Positions 1 to 5,703 of a stretch of 8,147 bases of DNA are shown here, in pieces. The stretch lies in the IMG/VR virus record IMGVR_UViG_3300028996_000031, one strand, 5' to 3'. How positions within the stretch are numbered: position 1 is the stretch's first letter; each line of letters begins with the position of its first letter. A program made the position numbers and the translations under genes. This DNA comes from a virus. Its lineage: Duplodnaviria; Heunggongvirae; Uroviricota; Caudoviricetes. The notes below the pieces were generated by a model, which ran no database searches, was not told where the DNA came from, and saw only the letters and a program-made list of their open reading frames with translations.

Positions 1-419
1 GTAAAGCACCATATTGGGCCAGTCGCTCCCGTGCTGTTCGACCGTCAGACTGGGAGAAATGGACAGAGGTAACGGAAGTTGTACCAGTCGTTTGCGATGT
101 ATGTAAAGGGAAGGGAGTGATAAGTGCCAGGTGTCGTTGTGGTGGAAAGGGAGAGGTACTGGACCGCAAAGCCACAAGCGAGCGTGGTGTGCCAGTATTT
201 AAAATCTGCGAACGTTGCAGCGGAAATGGATTTTCCACGGTACCGTCTACCACAGTATATAAAGTTGTACTGAAGCGGATACCCGAGCTACATGTCAGGA
301 CATGGACGCGTAATTGGAAGCCGTTTCTTGATTCTCTGGTTGACATTTGCCACCAGGAAGAGCGTAAGGCCGATATTGCTTTTCAGAATGTGACAAGTTT
401 TGGTGATGATGTGAACTAA
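1..419 (+). CDS. Late-gene antiterminator Q-like protein, 5'-truncated by window edge (C-terminal ~139 aa present)
   Basis: Open frame from position 3 to TAA at 417-419. Contains three Cys-pair motifs (CDVCKGKG, CRCGGKG, CERCSGNG) consistent with a zinc-binding domain. Lies immediately upstream of a terminator hairpin and the lysis cassette, the canonical Q position in lambdoid phages. Family assignment is positional plus motif-based, not verified by alignment. Confidence 0.55.
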   Translation, partial: KAPYWASRSRAVRPSDWEKWTEVTEVVPVVCDVCKGKGVISARCRCGGKGEVLDRKATSERGVPVFKICERCSGNGFSTVPSTTVYKVVLKRIPELHVRTWTRNWKPFLDSLVDICHQEERKADIAFQNVTSFGDDVN

Positions 420-512
420 GCTTAGGGTTTTTGCGACATTGCACTTGATTTTGTCCGAATCTGTCATGTATGCTTTTAAACATGCGGAATAATGCGTAAA
501 TGATTTTGATAG
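420..512 (+). promoter_or_regulatory. Putative late promoter (pR'-like) and Q-utilisation region
   Basis: 93-bp AT-rich spacer between Q stop and a terminator hairpin. Contains weak sigma70-like hexamers (e.g. AATAAT at 488-493) but I could not pin a convincing -35/-10 pair. Call is mainly positional. Confidence 0.3.
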
Positions 513-536
513 AAGCCCCTTTCGGGGCTTTTATCA
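513..536 (+). terminator. Intrinsic terminator, tR'-like
   Basis: Hairpin with GCCCC (515-519) / GGGGC (524-528) stem, TTTC loop, extended by A-T pairs 513-514/529-530, followed by TTTTATCATTT. Located about 95 bp downstream of the Q-like stop. Confidence 0.6.
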
Positions 537-601
537 TTTCAGCCCTTTTAAAAAGCGTTCGAAATTATGGAATTCAAGTTCATCCGCTGTCGATGAGTAT
601 T

Positions 602-1459
602 TTATTTTGTTTGCGATGGGACGNNNNNNNNNNNNNNNNNNNNNNNNNNNTTACTGGCTTCATGTTTCAGTTTTTTTAATCGCTTGATTCGTTCTTCGAT
701 TGAACTGGCAATTTTGGCAACATTAGAAATTTCTGGGCTTGGGGCTGTTTGTAGATCAATACACTGAATTTTTTTTAGATCTTCTTTGAGCGCAACAAAA
801 AAATCACGAAGATTGTTTTCTGGTAAAAGAACATGACTAAATGATACTTTTCCTATGTAGAATTCACTTATTGCCTCTCCAGACTCGCGCATGTGTTCAT
901 TCATTGCGAACAGAATTGTTTTGGTATTCTTATCAGTTTCCACTTCAGAAAGGGTTACAAGGCCTGTCTGGCTCTTGGTCAAAAAACGAATTTCTGTAGC
1001 ACCAAGTCTTCCGGAGTAATTGGAATTTTTACTATTTTCGATGGTAGAAGATAGATAATCTATTGTGGGTTTGATATTTCGTATCGTTTCAATATTTTTT
1101 TTCCACGCTTCACATTTACTTTTTGCGGTGCTAATAATTTCCCGATTGGTTTCGAGTTGCATAAATTTATTGAAACTAAGAACGTTTTCACCAAATTCCA
1201 CACCAAATTCGTTTTTACCACATTTATTTCCGATGTTGGTTTCAATGCCACTAGATGTTTTTACAATATAACCCATTTGATGTGGTTGGTTGCAACCAGT
1301 TAGACCACAGTGGATTTCTTCTTTAAATTTGTAGTAACCAATTATCTCCTCAAGTTGTTGAACTCCTTTGTCTATAGTGGTGACAAAGTTTGGTCTGGAT
1401 ATAATTTCCTCCCAGTTTTCAAGTTTCTCGATGCCGTTTTCAGTTCTGAGAAAAATCAT
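602..1459 (-). CDS. Orphan hypothetical protein (~285 aa), AT-rich, antisense to the late operon; C-terminus crosses an N-run
   Basis: Long minus-strand ORF. ATG at 1459 is preceded by GGAG with 6-nt spacing (the ATG at 1471 lies inside that SD, so 1459 is preferred). Codon usage is strongly A/T-biased relative to flanking phage genes. No P-loop, no hydrophobic segments and no family I recognise. The 3' end (stop at 602-604) is read across the 27-N run at 624-650 and is uncertain. Confidence 0.7.
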   Translation of the reverse strand: MIFLRTENGIEKLENWEEIISRPNFVTTIDKGVQQLEEIIGYYKFKEEIHCGLTGCNQPHQMGYIVKTSSGIETNIGNKCGKNEFGVEFGENVLSFNKFMQLETNREIISTAKSKCEAWKKNIETIRNIKPTIDYLSSTIENSKNSNYSGRLGATEIRFLTKSQTGLVTLSEVETDKNTKTILFAMNEHMRESGEAISEFYIGKVSFSHVLLPENNLRDFFVALKEDLKKIQCIDLQTAPSPEISNVAKIASSIEERIKRLKKLKHEASXXXXXXXXXXVPSQTK

Positions 1460-1682
1460 GAATCGCTCCATTTGAAAGTGGACCGTTTATTTTATCGGCA
1501 TAAAAACGAGAACACCACAAGTTATTTTATTACCGAATACTTGGTGAAGAGGGGGAACTTCGCCACACAGCTTAAACCCGCCGCCGTGCGGTTTTTTTTG
1601 TGCCACTTATCTCGGATAGACATGGTGAATGCGCTGGTGGAGGAAGTAAGAGTGATTTTTAATCAGTTGATTTTTTGAGTGC

Positions 1683-1711
1683 TTGCAACATTGATTTCGT
1701 AACGTTATTAT
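1683..1711 (+). promoter_or_regulatory. Sigma70-type promoter for the tRNA array
   Basis: TTGCAA (1683-1688), 17-bp spacer, TATTAT (1706-1711), then a GC-rich discriminator CCTGCGCCC (1712-1720) as in stable-RNA promoters. The first tRNA begins at 1721. Confidence 0.5.
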
Positions 1712-1720
1712 CCTGCGCCC

Positions 1721-1796
1721 GGCCCTTTAGCTCAGTGGTGAGAGCGAGCGACTCATAATCGCCAGGTCGCTGGTTCAAATCCAGCAAGGGCCACCA
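1721..1796 (+). tRNA. tRNA-Ile2 (anticodon CAU, lysidine type) or tRNA-Met; 76 nt with encoded CCA
   Basis: Cloverleaf folded by hand: acceptor GGCCCTT/AAGGGCC, D-arm GCTC..GAGC, anticodon loop CTCATAA (CAT at 1754-1756), T-loop TTCAAAT, discriminator A plus CCA. C4-G69 and C5-G68 in the acceptor stem and overall resemblance to ileX-type tRNA favour Ile2. Confidence 0.85.
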
Positions 1797-1797
1797 G

Positions 1798-1874
1798 CCG
1801 CCACTAGCTCATCAGGAAAGAGCGTCAACCCTTTAAGTTGAGTGTGCGAGGTTCGAGTCCCCGGTGGCGGTCCA
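1798..1874 (+). tRNA. Atypical tRNA-like gene, anticodon TTT (Lys-like) with C instead of U at position 33; possibly a variant or pseudo-tRNA
   Basis: Cloverleaf: acceptor CCGCCAC/GTGGCGG (starts with C1-G72), D-stem GCTC/GAGC with GG in the loop, anticodon stem TCAAC/GTTGA (perfect), loop CCTTTAA (1830-1836), T-loop TTCGAGT with one A-C mismatch in the T-stem, discriminator T plus CCA. One substitution from a Lys(UUU) loop, two from an Arg(UCU) loop. Confidence 0.55.
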
Positions 1875-1876
1875 GT

Positions 1877-1952
<76 letters not shown>

Positions 1953-1955
1953 TAT

Positions 1956-2030
<75 letters not shown>

Positions 2031-2036
2031 GTTAGA

Positions 2037-2082
2037 GTCTTTCAGTCTGCGATGATGGGAAATCCCGGAGTGACTGAAAGAC
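2037..2082. repeat. Perfect 11-bp inverted repeat (GTCTTTCAGTC / GACTGAAAGAC) around a 24-nt spacer containing a GGGAAATCCC mini-palindrome
   Basis: Arms at 2037-2047 and 2072-2082 are exact reverse complements. Begins 7 nt after the last tRNA. Confidence 0.7.
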
Positions 2083-2090
2083 GTTTAAGT

Positions 2091-2161
2091 TATGAATGAT
2101 CGCCTTTTTTTGCAAAATTGCTGTGCAGAAATACTAACCTTCGAGCAGGCGATCATTCATA
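2091..2161. repeat. Perfect 14-bp inverted repeat (TATGAATGATCGCC / GGCGATCATTCATA) flanking a 43-nt spacer
   Basis: Arms at 2091-2104 and 2148-2161 are exact reverse complements. The left arm is followed by T7 (2105-2111). Confidence 0.7.
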
Positions 2162-2236
2162 AGCACTCTGCTTTTATTCCGATTAACTGTGGGTGGTTTG
2201 TTGGATAGAGTGCTTTCCTTTCTGTATATATCGTTT

Positions 2237-2262
2237 CGCCCGCGTTTGCGGGTTTTTCTTTT
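2237..2262 (+). terminator. Intrinsic terminator between the tRNA array and the holin gene
   Basis: CCCGC (2239-2243) / GCGGG (2248-2252) stem with GTTT loop, followed by TTTTTCTTTT (2253-2262). Lies 60 bp upstream of the S start. Confidence 0.6.
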
Positions 2263-2322
2263 CAAATCCCTTTCATTTCTCAGTGTAAAACTACGCCATC
2301 CGTTATTTGCGGAGGTGAGGCT

Positions 2323-2538
2323 ATGAAATCCATGGACAAAATTTCAACGGGCATTGCCTACGGCACCTCCGCAGGCAGTGCTGGCTACTGGTTTTTACAG
2401 TGGCTTGATCAGGTCAGTCCTTCACAGTGGGCTGCGATTGGTGTACTGGGGAGTCTGGTTCTGGGCTTCCTGACTTATCTGACAAATCTGTACTTCAAAA
2501 TCAGAGAAGACAAGCGTAAGGCTGCACGGGGAGAGTAA
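2323..2538 (+). CDS. S: Class II holin, phage 21 S-type pinholin (71 aa) with dual-start motif
   Basis: Strong SD GGAGGTGAGG (2311-2320). Protein starts MKSMDKIS, i.e. Met1-Lys2-Ser3-Met4 (Met codons at 2323 and 2332), matching the S21 antiholin/holin dual-start arrangement. Two hydrophobic segments, the first Gly/Ala/Ser-rich (SAR-like), and a charged C-tail. Sequence matches my recollection of S21/EssQ-family holins. Confidence 0.9.
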
Positions 2539-2542
2539 TTCA

Positions 2543-2887
2543 ATGACTCAAAACTATGAACTGATTGTGAAAGGGATCCGCAATTTTGAGAATAAAGTTA
2601 CGGTAACTTTAGCGTTACGGGACAAAAAACGCTTTGACGGTGAAATTTTTGACCTGGACATCTCGCTGGACCGTGTTGAAGGTGCCGCGCTGGAGTTTTA
2701 TGAGGCAGCAGCCAGAATGAGAATCAGACAGGTATTCCTGGATGTTGCTGCCGGGTTATGTGTAGGGGATGAGCAGTCGCCGGAAAAGCGCCCCATAATT
2801 TTAGAGGCGCAGAATGTGTGGATAACCTACAAAGGAAAGCCACCAGGAAGAATTACTGATTCTCTGAAGACTCCACCGAAATGGTAA
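2543..2887 (+). CDS. Hypothetical protein (114 aa), positionally equivalent to YdfR (DUF1327-type) between holin and endolysin
   Basis: ATG at 2543 with SD GGGGAGAG 7 nt upstream, 4 nt after the holin stop (translationally coupled). Phage-like codon usage. Stop at 2885-2887 just before the 58-N run. Family name is from recalled Qin gene order (essQ-ydfR-rrrQ), not from alignment. Confidence 0.65.
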   Translation: MTQNYELIVKGIRNFENKVTVTLALRDKKRFDGEIFDLDISLDRVEGAALEFYEAAARMRIRQVFLDVAAGLCVGDEQSPEKRPIILEAQNVWITYKGKPPGRITDSLKTPPKW

Positions 2888-2960
2888 TTTTACCAGCATA
2901 TTNNNNNNNNNNNNNNNNNNNNNNNNNNNNNNNNNNNNNNNNNNNNNNNNNNNNNNNNNN

Positions 2961-3125
2961 GGGGTTGCGTGATTCAAGCAGGAGCGATGCCAGTGTTGGT
3001 TGCATTTGTTCTCTGGGAATTGATAAGGCCAAATATGAAAATGCAACAGTGAGGGCATTTACATCATCCCGAAGCTTTGAAATGCAGTCGAGCAACTCCT
3101 GTAGAGAAATGGTGTTATTGTCCAT
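2961..3125 (-). CDS. Small antisense ORF with strong RBS (at least 55 aa; 90 aa if the frame is continuous across the N-run to 2853)
   Basis: Minus-strand ATG at 3125 preceded by AAGAGGA with 6-nt spacing (reverse complement of 3126-3140). Protein begins MDNNTISLQELLDCISKLRDDVNALTVAFSYLALSIPREQ. The 3' portion is interrupted by the N-run at 2903-2960. Confidence 0.35.
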
Positions 3126-4262: not shown

Positions 4263-4499
4263 ATGTAGATTAACATTAAATCGGATTATTTTTAGTGCTG
4301 AATGTGAAATTTAAATAAAAAGGACTCTTCCATGAGTCAAAATCCTTGAAATCTTAAGGGTAAGATAAAAGGTCATTAGACAGAATGACACGTTTTATTA
4401 ATAAATAAAGCTATTGTTTCATTCGTGTGTTTTTCTTTACAAAAGTAATCCTTGCTATGGTTGGTTAATCATGCGTTAANNNNNNNNNNTGTTCTGGTT

Positions 4500-4540
4500 T
4501 GTTACAAAATTATCTGAAGCAGTCATTGTTATAATTTTAT
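4500..4540 (+). promoter_or_regulatory. Putative csp promoter (extended -10 TGtTATAAT at 4527-4535) with AT-rich upstream region
   Basis: TG at 4527-4528 followed by TATAAT at 4530-4535; weak -35. Would give a ~95-nt 5'UTR, typical of cold-shock genes. A 10-N run at 4480-4489 lies just upstream. Confidence 0.4.
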
Positions 4541-4637
4541 TATTTGTACCTCTTGAGATTTCCTTGTTGGTTTTTCTCTCTGATATTTTTTTCGGACCAT
4601 TCTGCCCAAGGGCTAACTTCTTCAAAAGGTAATAATG

Positions 4638-4850
4638 ATGTCTAACAAAATGACTGGTTTAGTGAAATGGTTTAACCCTGAAAAAGGTTTTGGTTTCATC
4701 ACGCCGAAAGATGGTAGCAAAGATGTGTTTGTCCATTTCTCAGCTATTCAGAGCAACGATTTCAAAACGTTAACTGAGAATCAGCAAGTCGAATTTGGTA
4801 TTGAGAACGGACCTAAAGGCCCCGCGGCTGTTCATGTAGTGGCACTTTGA
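4638..4850 (+). CDS. cspI: Cold-shock protein, CspA family (70 aa), CspI-like
   Basis: [44 protein letters not shown]... contains the RNP1 (KGFGFI) and RNP2 (VFVHF) motifs of cold-shock domains. Matches my recollection of Qin-encoded CspI. Second of two tandem ATGs chosen on homology grounds. Confidence 0.9.
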
Positions 4851-5054
4851 GGTAGAAAATATTACAAACCATATTCACTTTAGATGCCCGTGTTGCCATG
4901 GTTCTCAGTATAGAACATCATCTTTTGATGTTTCTGACAGGAATCCTTTCGGGGCAAAATGTATCTTTTGTAAATCAATGATGATTACATTTGATAATAT
5001 TTCACAATACTTAAATGTTAGCCGTCTGTCGTTAGATTTAAGAAAGTGAAAATG

Positions 5055-5524: not shown

Positions 5525-5703
5525 ATGAACATTGAAGNNNNNNNNNNAAAACAAAAACAGAAGCAGATATTTCTGAATATATAACAAAAAAAATTATTGA
5601 GCTTAAGAAAAAGACCGGGAAAGAAGTTACCAGTATCCAGTTTACTGCACGGGAAAAAATGACTGGTCTTGAAAGCTATGATATCAAGATTGATTTAATC
5701 TAG
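5525..5703 (+). CDS. gnsB: GnsA/GnsB-family protein, interrupted by a 10-N run
   Basis: SD AAAGAGGA upstream. Translation MNIE...[N-run]...KTKTEADISEYITKKIIELKKKTGKEVTSIQFTAREKMTGLESYDIKIDLI matches the Gns-family signature I recall (TGKEV..IRFTAREKMTGLESYD.KI). Reading frames on either side of the N-run differ by 1 nt, so the N-run length is not exact. Confidence 0.8.

What the first reader, a model, noticed from the sequence alone, without database searches (positions are those of the whole stretch)
1460..1720. Divergent control region shared by the orphan gene and the tRNA array
The orphan gene (minus strand) and the tRNA promoter (plus strand) are back to back within ~260 bp. That region also holds a weak hairpin with a T8 run (CCGC-CGT-GCGG then TTTTTTTT, 1581-1599) that would stop plus-strand read-through before the tRNA promoter. 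The adjacency raises the speculative possibility that they form one acquired module, for example a tRNA-targeting function paired with resistant tRNAs, or a rare-codon-rich gene paired with its decoders. The late transcript must also cross this region antisense to the orphan gene, which could silence it during lytic growth.
Basis: inference. Interest (0 to 1): 0.45.

Follow-up and report, generated by a model that had tools for sequence, protein, structure and literature searches.

The report
Mosaic junction, not a shared control region
The 260 bases between the orphan gene and the tRNA genes are a seam where two independently mobile prophage cassettes were joined at a decayed terminator, so this is ordinary phage mosaicism and not a functional gene-plus-tRNA module.

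Summary
The sequence features are real. The orphan ATG is at 1459. The hairpin is CCGC/CGT/GCGG plus T8 at 1581-1599. A TTGCAA-17-TATTAT promoter lies at 1683-1711, and the first tRNA starts at 1721.

The region is a composite of parts with separate histories:
- 1460-1517 holds the orphan gene's own ribosome-binding site and a weak promoter whose -10 is conserved across genera.
- 1577-1599 is a weakened homologue of the tR' terminator that follows the late promoter in phages Evi and 606R7.
- 1600-1720 is the upstream block and promoter of a tRNA cassette found in 949 of 5426 complete E. coli genomes. A primary transcription start between tR' and the tRNAs was mapped in an Stx2a phage (PMC7547250).

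The orphan gene (phrog_7003, unknown function) occurs in 16 of 5426 E. coli genomes. Only one of these has the tRNA array next to it. In eight genera the orphan gene always lies convergent with Q, directly behind the working pR'/tR', with no adjacent tRNA array. Homology with orphan-only and tRNA-only relatives breaks exactly at the hairpin.

The idea of one acquired module is therefore refuted. The idea that late transcription must run antisense through the orphan gene is supported by the architecture. Interest is low.

The parts
445..474 (+). Candidate late promoter pR' (-35 TTGATT 445-450, 18-bp spacer containing CCGAATCTGT, -10 TATGCT 469-474), directly after the Q stop at 419
   Evidence: It is conserved in the Q-orphan gap of E. 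coli, Salmonella and Enterobacter. It aligns with the lambda-like pR' of phage Evi, whose Q is 38% identical. It was not picked up by the simple scan. Assignment is by homology and position, so it is an inference.
507..536 (+). Strong hairpin plus T-rich tail. This is the working tR' of the late leader and probably also the terminator of the convergent orphan gene. The orphan stop codon (536-534) lies in its 3' arm.
   Evidence: dG is -21.2 kcal/mol with z = -7.5 on the plus strand, and -18.3 with z = -6.7 on the minus strand. A hairpin plus T-run sits at this position in eight genera, with different stem sequences.
534..1459 (-). Orphan gene (306 aa in the unmasked identical copy; phrog_7003; GC 35%). 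It is convergent with Q and antisense to the late operon.
   Evidence: There are no Pfam, NCBIfam or PADLOC hits. The AF2 model has pLDDT 92 and no significant fold match. C51, C56, H60 and C80 are conserved.
1460..1517 (-). Orphan gene 5' region: SD GGAG 1469-1466, candidate -10 TAAAAT (1494-1489) and weak -35 TGGTGT (1517-1512)
   Evidence: The block is conserved upstream of the gene in Escherichia, Salmonella and Enterobacter. The -10 hexamer is kept even in Phytobacter and Yersinia, where the flanks have diverged. It is below the threshold of the consensus scan, so promoter activity is inferred.
1577..1599 (+). Relic tR'-type intrinsic terminator (stem CCGC 1581-1584 / GCGG 1588-1591, T8 1592-1599). 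It is the recombination seam between the orphan cassette and the tRNA cassette.
   Evidence: It aligns with the terminators that follow pR' in Evi and 606R7/PPompW, where dG is -11 to -13 and z is -2.5 to -2.9. Here dG is -8.2 and z is -0.77. Homology with orphan-only relatives ends at 1599-1601, and homology with tRNA-only relatives starts at 1574.
1600..1682 (+). Conserved upstream block of the tRNA cassette, with two phased A/T tracts (TGATTTTT at 1653-1660 and 1668-1675) just upstream of the -35. These may act as an UP element.
   Evidence: The block 1600-1722 is present in 949 of 5426 E. coli genomes, and every listed hit sits under a tRNA-Ile annotation. The UP-element function is inferred.
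1683..1720 (+). tRNA promoter: TTGCAA 1683-1688, 17-bp spacer, TATTAT 1706-1711, GC-rich discriminator CCTGCGCC. The predicted start is 2-3 nt before the mature tRNA 5' end.
   Evidence: The hexamers, spacing and discriminator are conserved in 606R7, PPompW, PhiR47_1 and an Stx2a phage, and the hexamers and spacing in Evi as far as it was aligned. A primary transcription start between tR' and the tRNAs was mapped by dRNA-seq in Stx2a phage Sp5 (PMC7547250).
1721..2030 (+). tRNA array: Ile2 (CAU), Lys (UUU), Thr (UGU), Gly (UCC)
   Evidence: NCBI annotates the CAU tRNA as tRNA-Ile.

Best explanation
Window 1460-1720 is a chimeric intergenic seam in the Q-to-holin accessory hot spot of a lambdoid prophage. 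It is not a co-evolved bidirectional control region.

**Left part (1460 to about 1535).** This belongs to a 'moron' cassette: an orphan gene with its own ribosome-binding site, a weak sigma-70 promoter and a strong terminator. The cassette sits antisense immediately behind the working late promoter and terminator (pR' 445-474, tR' 507-536).

**Middle (1577-1599).** This is a weakened copy of the tR' terminator that in other phages directly follows pR' and forms the left edge of the tRNA cassette. Here it is the point where the two cassettes were recombined.

**Right part (1600-1720).** This is the tRNA cassette's own constitutive, stable-RNA-type promoter with its A/T-rich upstream block.

**Predicted behaviour (inferred).** In a lysogen, pR' transcripts stop at 507-536. 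The orphan gene is read leftward from its weak promoter, and the tRNAs rightward from theirs, independently of each other. After induction, Q-modified polymerase reads through both terminators. It runs about 0.9 kb antisense through the orphan gene, which probably damps that gene, then through the tRNAs into the lysis genes.
For: **Break in homology**
- Stx2f phage phi467 shares window 400-1601 (Q end, orphan, hairpin) and then continues into stx2f.
- Phages 606R7, 689R5, Evi and PPompW share the stretch from 1574 onward (hairpin, promoter, tRNAs) with no orphan gene.
- E. coli N61 and KC-Dl-1 are near-identical (a few substitutions) to the window up to the T-run. They then diverge and rejoin about 45 bp before the holin ATG.

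**The hairpin is a tR' homologue**
- In Evi it follows a lambda-like pR' (TTGATT..TAAATT..AACGAT).
- In 606R7 it lies 70-90 bp after an unrelated Q gene.
- It is a good terminator in those phages and weaker in the orphan-linked copies.

**The working pR'/tR' lie in the Q-orphan gap**
- This gap is conserved in eight genera, with stems of different sequence.

**The tRNA promoter**
- It is conserved in all cassette variants examined.
- A start site was mapped experimentally in an Stx2a phage (PMC7547250).

**Distribution**
- The orphan gene is in 16 of 5426 E. coli genomes and the tRNA promoter block in 949 of 5426. They are directly adjacent in only one.
- Orphan loci from other genera and from most E. 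coli copies carry no adjacent tRNA array: 0 tRNAs in the 9 Salmonella, Enterobacter, Serratia, Yersinia, Providencia and Pectobacterium loci fetched, and 2 of 27 more distant loci have a single tRNA on the other side of the gene.

**No shared regulatory element**
- No shared palindrome or operator is present in 1440-1740.
- The orphan gene is 35% GC against about 41-52% for the neighbouring genes.
Against: - No expression data exist for this prophage.
- The orphan promoter is weak by consensus and is assigned only from conservation.
- pR' is assigned by position and by similarity to Evi and lambda, and was not detected by the scan.
- The evidence that the hairpin has decayed rests on a few related lineages. 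One orphan-linked copy (strain 90-3040) still has a fair hairpin of -10.6 kcal/mol.
- A T8 tract behind even a 4-bp GC stem may still terminate partially, so the hairpin could retain some insulating function.
- Four of the 16 orphan-carrying E. coli genomes have a tRNA-Ile somewhere in the same Q-holin interval (two of the four, H74 and H75, were not fetched and are assumed from identical match statistics). A loose association cannot be excluded statistically, although the arrangements differ.
Confidence: 0.8

Rival explanations
1. Functional acquired module. Either the orphan protein targets host tRNAs and the adjacent tRNAs are resistant replacements, or the AT-rich orphan gene depends on the adjacent decoders for AUA, AAA, ACA and GGA.
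For: - The orphan gene uses these four codons at 163 per 1000, against 82 per 1000 in 12 neighbouring genes.
- The Lys(UUU) tRNA has a non-host body and an unusual anticodon loop with C33.
- Prophage anticodon nucleases and phage rescue tRNAs exist elsewhere (PMC13043305, PMC11464382).
Against: - The orphan family lacks an adjacent tRNA array in eight other genera and in most E. coli copies, which have the same codon profile.
- The tRNA cassette is about 60 times more common than the orphan gene and normally occurs without it.
- Homology breaks between the two.
- The enrichment is mostly AAA in a Lys-rich, 35% GC gene. The AUA rate equals that of R and Rz.
- No nuclease, HEPN or defence-family hit was found, and no fold match.
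Confidence: 0.03
2. The T8 hairpin is an actively maintained insulator. It would stop unmodified polymerases that leak past tR' or start spuriously inside the AT-rich antisense strand of the orphan gene, protecting the tRNA promoter from occlusion.
For: - A hairpin plus T-run is kept at this spot in the 99%-identical E. coli orphan cassettes examined and in strain 90-3040, whatever lies downstream: tRNAs, stx2f or holin.
- Serratia also has a terminator-like hairpin between the orphan gene and the holin.
- The T-tract here is long, at 8 T.
Against: - The stem is only 4-5 pairs, and its stability is indistinguishable from shuffled sequence (z = -0.77).
- In N61 and KC-Dl-1 the terminator fold is not even the minimum-energy structure.
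- Salmonella and Enterobacter loci show no clear equivalent.
- The simplest reading is inheritance of an old tR' made redundant by the strong hairpin at 507-536.
Confidence: 0.15
3. The TTGCAA-17-TATTAT motif is not a working promoter, and the tRNAs are made only by processing the Q-antiterminated late transcript.
For: - The hexamer match is only 9 of 12, and such matches are not rarer than chance in this region.
- The predicted start would leave only a 2-3 nt leader.
Against: - The hexamers, 17-bp spacing and GC-rich discriminator are conserved across divergent cassettes, including PhiR47_1, where the flanks differ.
- Every class of cassette left boundary (1574, 1648, 1683) retains the promoter.
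- A primary start site for the tRNAs was mapped between tR' and the tRNAs in an Stx2a phage (PMC7547250).
Confidence: 0.04

Closest known systems
Late-leader region of Stx phages (933W / Sakai Sp5): Q - pR' - tR' - tRNA promoter - ileZ argN argO - stx
   Same: The order of elements downstream of the hairpin is the same. The tRNA promoter and tRNA-Ile2 are homologous, at about 88-94% identity. A separate promoter for the tRNAs between tR' and the tRNAs was reported from dRNA-seq (PMC7547250).
   Different: Here an antisense orphan gene with its own terminator lies between pR' and the old tR'. The array is Ile2-Lys-Thr-Gly instead of Ile-Arg-Arg. No stx gene follows. The Q type differs.
Lambda pR' - 6S RNA - tR' (and the StxS small RNA of Stx phages)
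   Same: A constitutive late promoter lies directly after a PF03589-type Q gene. A short leader ends at a strong intrinsic terminator (445-536) that Q-modified polymerase overrides. The -35 TTGATT and spacer resemble the lambda-like pR' of Evi. The lambda sequence itself is from my own knowledge.
   Different: The predicted leader is only about 55 nt, against 194 nt in lambda and 258 nt in Stx phages. The terminator is shared with a convergent gene. A second, decayed tR' copy lies 1.1 kb downstream.
Prophage 'morons': self-contained promoter-gene-terminator cassettes in the late region, such as lambda bor, which is also antisense to late transcription (own knowledge)
   Same: The orphan gene is AT-rich and foreign in composition, has its own -10 and a terminator, and varies in presence among otherwise related phages. 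It is oriented against the late operon.
   Different: Its function is unknown, and no membrane or lipoprotein signal is evident. Its position is unusually fixed: always convergent with Q, abutting tR', and next to two unrelated Q families.
Prophage anticodon nucleases and phage rescue tRNAs (HepS of Gifsy-1; PARIS AriB versus T5 tRNA-Lys)
   Same: Lambdoid prophages do carry single-gene tRNA-cleaving defences, and phages do carry variant tRNAs that escape them (PMC13043305, PMC11464382).
   Different: The orphan protein has no HEPN or Toprim signature, no PADLOC hit and no fold match. HepS sits elsewhere in its prophage. The orphan gene and the tRNAs do not co-occur.

Membership tests
Lambdoid tR' intrinsic terminator (for 1577-1599) | GC-rich stem-loop directly followed by a T-run on the late strand | tested here: met
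   The stem has 4-5 pairs and is followed by T8. It is weak: dG -8.2, z -0.77.
Lambdoid tR' intrinsic terminator (for 1577-1599) | First terminator downstream of pR', within the short late leader | tested here: not met
   In the window the first terminator after pR' is the hairpin at 507-536. The 1577-1599 hairpin is 1.1 kb further on, behind the orphan gene. The feature is met in the homologous positions of Evi and 606R7.
Lambdoid tR' intrinsic terminator (for 1577-1599) | Sequence homology to a terminator that occupies the tR' position in related phages | tested here: met
   Alignment A1. The flanks AAACCCGCC...GCGG(G)TTTTTTTGTGCC are shared with Evi, 606R7 and PPompW.
Sigma-70 stable-RNA (tRNA) promoter (for 1683-1720) | -35 and -10 hexamers with 16-18 bp spacing, conserved among homologues | tested here: met
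   TTGCAA-17-TATTAT. It is conserved in six phage cassettes.
Sigma-70 stable-RNA (tRNA) promoter (for 1683-1720) | GC-rich discriminator between the -10 and the start, and an A/T-rich upstream element | tested here: met
   CCTGCGCC lies at 1712-1719, and phased TGATTTTT tracts at 1653-1675. The functional meaning is inferred from established knowledge of rRNA and tRNA promoters.
Sigma-70 stable-RNA (tRNA) promoter (for 1683-1720) | Mapped primary transcription start | not testable with these tools
   A start is reported in this interval in Stx2a phage Sp5 (PMC7547250). It has not been measured for this prophage.
Moron cassette (orphan gene 507-1517) | Own promoter and own terminator flanking a single gene | tested here: inconclusive
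   The terminator is clearly present. The promoter is only a conserved TAAAAT with a weak -35 and was not detected by the consensus scan.
Moron cassette (orphan gene 507-1517) | Deviant base composition, and presence/absence polymorphism among related phages | tested here: met
   GC is 35% against about 41-52% in the neighbouring genes. The gene is present in 16 of 5426 E. coli genomes. Related late regions (606R7, Evi) lack it.
   Only one of 16 E. coli genomes has direct adjacency. The loci from other genera have no tRNA array next to the gene.
Shared divergent (bidirectional) control region | Common operator or palindrome, or overlapping promoters, conserved as a unit | tested here: not met
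   The -35 elements are 166 bp apart. No palindrome is present. The two halves have different phylogenetic distributions, with the break at 1574-1601.

The most novel reading that the evidence does not exclude
The orphan family (phrog_7003) has a conserved Cys-Cys-His-Cys motif, a long helical domain, and a confident model with no fold relatives. It could be a new single-gene prophage defence or exclusion protein. Its fixed position could be the point: always convergent with Q with its stop codon at the tR' hairpin, in eight genera and beside two unrelated Q families. When its own prophage is induced, Q-antiterminated polymerase would run head-on through the gene and switch it off. The prophage would thus escape its own defence without needing an immunity gene.
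Probability: 0.12. Interest if true: 0.6.

Novelty: new member of a known kind. Interest (0 to 1): 0.18.

Why it matters
The main value is a correct annotation. The late promoter and terminator of this prophage lie upstream of the orphan gene. The tRNA array is a separate cassette with its own promoter. The hairpin is a recombination scar. This removes a tempting but wrong 'toxin plus resistant tRNA' reading. It also shows how terminator hairpins serve as exchange points between accessory cassettes in the Q-to-holin hot spot, the same spot that carries stx genes. The orphan family's fixed antisense position behind tR' is a modest lead for people who look for prophage defence genes.

Tried and rejected
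- **Rfam** (E-value mode, whole window). It found nothing in 1460-1720 except a chance snoRNA-like hit at E = 0.5.
- **Protein family and PDB sequence searches** on the orphan protein. Pfam, NCBIfam, PADLOC, and PDB sequence and profile searches gave no significant match. Only phrog_7003, of unknown function, matched.
- **HEPN-type Rx4-6H motif.** I looked for one by eye in the alignment. None is conserved.
- **Repeat and palindrome search** in 1440-1740. It found only two short A/T tracts.
- **Codon hypothesis.** It was counted and rejected as a family-wide composition effect.
- **Literature searches** for ileZ/argN promoter papers found nothing useful. Plunkett 1999 (PMC93574) is not held.
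- **The plus-strand ORF 1310-1678** (122 aa) was considered and dismissed. It crosses the recombination seam and is not kept in N61 or KC-Dl-1.

Full report
**Context**

The window is the late-control and lysis region of a lambdoid prophage. In order it carries:
- the 3' end of a PF03589 Q antiterminator (to 419);
- an orphan gene on the minus strand;
- four tRNAs (Ile2-CAU 1721, Lys-UUU 1798, Thr-UGU 1877, Gly-UCC 1956);
- a P21-type holin (2323), DUF1327, lysozyme and Rz;
- a csp gene with its cspA thermoregulator, then the terminase genes.

Window 400-2330 is 100% identical to a prophage of E. coli F719 (NZ_OY754392.1). The masked N-run is readable there. The orphan gene is 306 aa (WP_097479045.1) and spans window 534-1459.

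**Observation**

- The orphan start is the ATG at 1459, with GGAG at 1469-1466. The upstream in-frame ATG at 1471 has no ribosome-binding site and is absent in Phytobacter.
- The hairpin is CCGC/CGT/GCGG at 1581-1591 followed by T8 at 1592-1599.
- The promoter is TTGCAA (1683-1688), a 17-bp spacer and TATTAT (1706-1711), followed by the GC-rich CCTGCGCC. The tRNA starts at 1721.

Taken alone these matches are not beyond chance. The scan found 5 promoter-like sites against 3.5 expected and 3 terminator-like sites against 2.2 expected. The hairpin folds no better than shuffled sequence, with dG -8.2 kcal/mol and z -0.77. The comparative data are what give them meaning.

**The region is a seam between two cassettes**

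A search of phage records with 400-2330 found no record that covers both halves.
- Stx2f phage phi467 matches window 400-1601 (Q end, orphan gene, its upstream region and the hairpin). It then runs into stx2f, and it has no Ile or Lys tRNA.
- Phages 606R7, 689R5, Evi and the PPompW group match from window 1574 onward (hairpin, promoter, tRNAs). They have no orphan gene, and a Q gene lies directly upstream.
- Other cassette variants start at window 1648 (Stx2 phages) or at 1683, which is exactly the -35 (PhiR47_1). Every variant keeps the promoter.
- E. coli N61 and KC-Dl-1 are near-identical to the window, apart from a few substitutions, from the orphan ATG to the T-run of the hairpin. They then carry about 270 bp of unrelated sequence without tRNAs and rejoin about 45 bp before the holin ATG.

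The overlap of the two homology classes is the hairpin at 1574-1601.

**What the hairpin is**

- In phage Evi the homologous hairpin (ACCCGC-CCCCGT-GCGGGT plus T7; dG -11, z -2.9) lies about 50 nt after a lambda-like late promoter (TTGATT..TAAATT, then the AACGAT pause motif). The lambda comparison is from my own knowledge. Evi's Q is 38% identical to the window's Q.
- In 606R7 and PPompW a variant of the hairpin with a different loop (dG -13.1, z -2.5) lies 70-90 bp after the stop of an unrelated Q gene. A TTGCAA-17-TATATT promoter overlaps the end of that Q gene.
- The hairpin is therefore the tR' terminator of those phages and the left edge of a 'tR' - tRNA promoter - tRNA' cassette.
- In the orphan-linked copies it is weaker, at -6.1 to -10.6 kcal/mol. 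In N61 and KC-Dl-1 it is not the minimum-energy fold.
- I read it as an inherited tR' that became redundant. The sample is small and the lineages are related, so decay under relaxed selection is an inference.

**Where the working late promoter and terminator are**

The 114-bp gap between Q and the orphan 3' end is conserved in E. coli, Salmonella and Enterobacter.
- TTGATT (445-450) is invariant in the seven sequences aligned apart from one substitution in Serratia (TTGACT).
- The spacer contains CCGAATCTGT and resembles Evi's.
- A -10 TATGCT lies at 469-474.
- A hairpin at 507-536 has a conserved stem and variable loops (TTTC, GCGA, TCTC). It is very stable, at -21.2 kcal/mol with z -7.5, and it also folds on the minus strand at -18.3.
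- The orphan stop codon (536-534) lies in its 3' arm.

Serratia, Yersinia, Providencia, Pectobacterium and Phytobacter carry the orphan gene next to Q genes that, where annotated (the first four genera), are of the DUF1133/PF06530 type. There the same gap again contains a hairpin plus T-run, built from different stem sequences.

The late transcript therefore starts upstream of the orphan gene and must cross it antisense to reach the tRNAs and lysis genes. Any silencing effect remains untested.

**The orphan gene's own signals**

About 75 bp upstream of the ATG is conserved across Escherichia, Salmonella and Enterobacter. A TAAAAT hexamer (1494-1489, minus strand) persists even in Phytobacter and Yersinia, where the flanks have diverged. 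In one E. coli strain it is replaced by TATGAT. A weak -35 (TGGTGT/TGGTGA, 1517-1512) lies 17 bp upstream. This fits a weak constitutive promoter, but it is below the threshold of the consensus scan. Conservation between genera ends near 1535.

**The tRNA promoter**

The -35, the 17-bp spacing, the -10 and the GC-rich discriminator are conserved in 606R7, PPompW, PhiR47_1 and an Stx2a phage, and the hexamers and spacing in Evi as far as it was aligned. Two phased TGATTTTT tracts lie just upstream. The block 1600-1722 occurs in 949 of 5426 complete E. coli genomes (1447 places), and every listed hit sits under a tRNA-Ile annotation. Sy et al. [quoted passage not shown] The Stx2a promoter aligns hexamer for hexamer with the window.

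**Test of the 'one module' idea**

The orphan family (103 database clusters, all named hypothetical where a source names them) is found in lambdoid prophages of Escherichia, Salmonella, Enterobacter, Citrobacter, Phytobacter, Leclercia, Pectobacterium, Serratia, Yersinia and Providencia. More distant relatives occur in other Proteobacteria.

- In every context examined the gene is convergent with Q and antisense to the late genes.
- ARAGORN found no tRNA in the 9 Salmonella, Enterobacter, Serratia, Yersinia, Providencia and Pectobacterium loci.
- Only 2 of 27 more distant loci have a tRNA. Each is a single tRNA on the far side of the gene.

Sixteen of 5426 complete E. coli genomes carry the gene. 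Their downstream arrangements are:
- F719 has the four-tRNA array adjacent.
- Strain 90-3040 has a methyltransferase remnant and then one tRNA-Ile about 520 bp away. Two further strains give the same match statistics and may be alike, but they were not fetched.
- N61 and KC-Dl-1 go straight to the same holin type, and EC2001 goes to a lambda-type holin.
- 2015C-4136CT1 goes to stx2f.
- M8 has a truncated gene followed by an IS.
- Strain 'numer 3' has hypothetical genes and a methyltransferase.

**Codons**

The orphan gene has 8 AUA, 30 AAA, 7 ACA and 5 GGA codons, or 163 per 1000. Twelve other genes pooled give 82 per 1000. This follows from 35% GC and a high Lys content. Shares within each amino acid are only slightly raised (AUA/Ile 0.27 against 0.20), and R and Rz have the same AUA rate. 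Copies of the gene with no tRNAs nearby show the same profile, at 95-160 per 1000.

**The orphan protein**

**Verdict**

The 'shared divergent control region / acquired module' interpretation is not. The antisense-crossing point is correct. The region is a typical lambdoid mosaic junction made of known kinds of elements. Interest is low. The only mildly novel lead is the orphan family's strictly fixed antisense position behind tR'.

Noticed in passing
window 1798-1874: The tRNA-Lys(UUU) has the anticodon loop CCUUUAA, with C33 in place of the near-universal U33. It also has a C1-G72 pair and U73. It is built on the scaffold of the Stx-phage argN tRNA-Arg(UCG) with three changes in the loop. 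It is conserved in 606R7, PhiR47_1 and PPompW, with wobble-compatible stem changes. It could be a decoder that escapes anticodon nucleases, or it could be poorly functional. Its Rfam score is the lowest of the four tRNAs, at 44 bits.
   Followed up: partly
window 1877-2030: The Thr(UGU) and Gly(UCC) tRNAs are 100% identical to the host chromosomal tRNA-Thr and tRNA-Gly genes that flank tRNA-Tyr (thrU and glyT by my own knowledge of K-12). The host match comes in two pieces because tRNA-Tyr lies between them there. This suggests capture from the host operon with loss of the tRNA-Tyr gene. In phi467 the same Thr-Gly pair sits downstream of stx2f.
   Followed up: partly
window 2031-2262: The trailer after tRNA-Gly folds into three consecutive long perfect hairpins. 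The arms are 2037-2047/2072-2082, 2090-2105/2147-2162 and 2161-2169/2207-2215. A terminator follows at 2238-2260. The fold has dG -81 kcal/mol and z -6.3. The trailer is nearly identical in 606R7. No Rfam family matches. It may be a processed small RNA or a stabilising or processing structure.
   Followed up: partly
window 445-536: The predicted pR' leader RNA is only about 55 nt (start near 482, end near 531-540). It would be the counterpart of lambda 6S RNA and of StxS, and would be made constitutively in lysogens. An AATAAT -10-like motif at 488-493 could be the sigma-dependent pause element.
   Followed up: partly
window 534-1459 and loci L004, L007, L010, L049-L051: The orphan family (phrog_7003) always lies convergent with Q, with its stop at the tR' hairpin. 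This holds next to two unrelated Q families and in eight genera, while the sequence on its 5' side varies: holin, tRNAs, stx2f, an Endonuclease_NS gene, or small ORFs.
   Followed up: partly
window 4492-4896: A cspA-type thermoregulator 5' UTR (Rfam RF01766, 113 bits) precedes a 71-aa cold-shock protein gene inside the prophage, between Rz and the terminase genes.
   Followed up: no
window 624-650, 2904-2960, 4480-4488, 5538-5547: The runs of N are masks and do not preserve length. The 27 N at 624-650 replace 22 real bases in the identical F719 locus. ORF coordinates and lengths across them are therefore unreliable. The ORF listing gave the orphan gene as 602-1471 instead of 534-1459.
   Followed up: yes
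L003 (E. coli F719) compared with window beyond 4262: The only complete E. coli genome identical over 400-2330 has an HNH endonuclease and a P27-type small terminase after the lysis genes. The window instead continues into csp, several small ORFs and a terminase region that looks lambda-type by eye (not scanned). The window's prophage is therefore a further mosaic and is not represented end to end in that collection.
   Followed up: no
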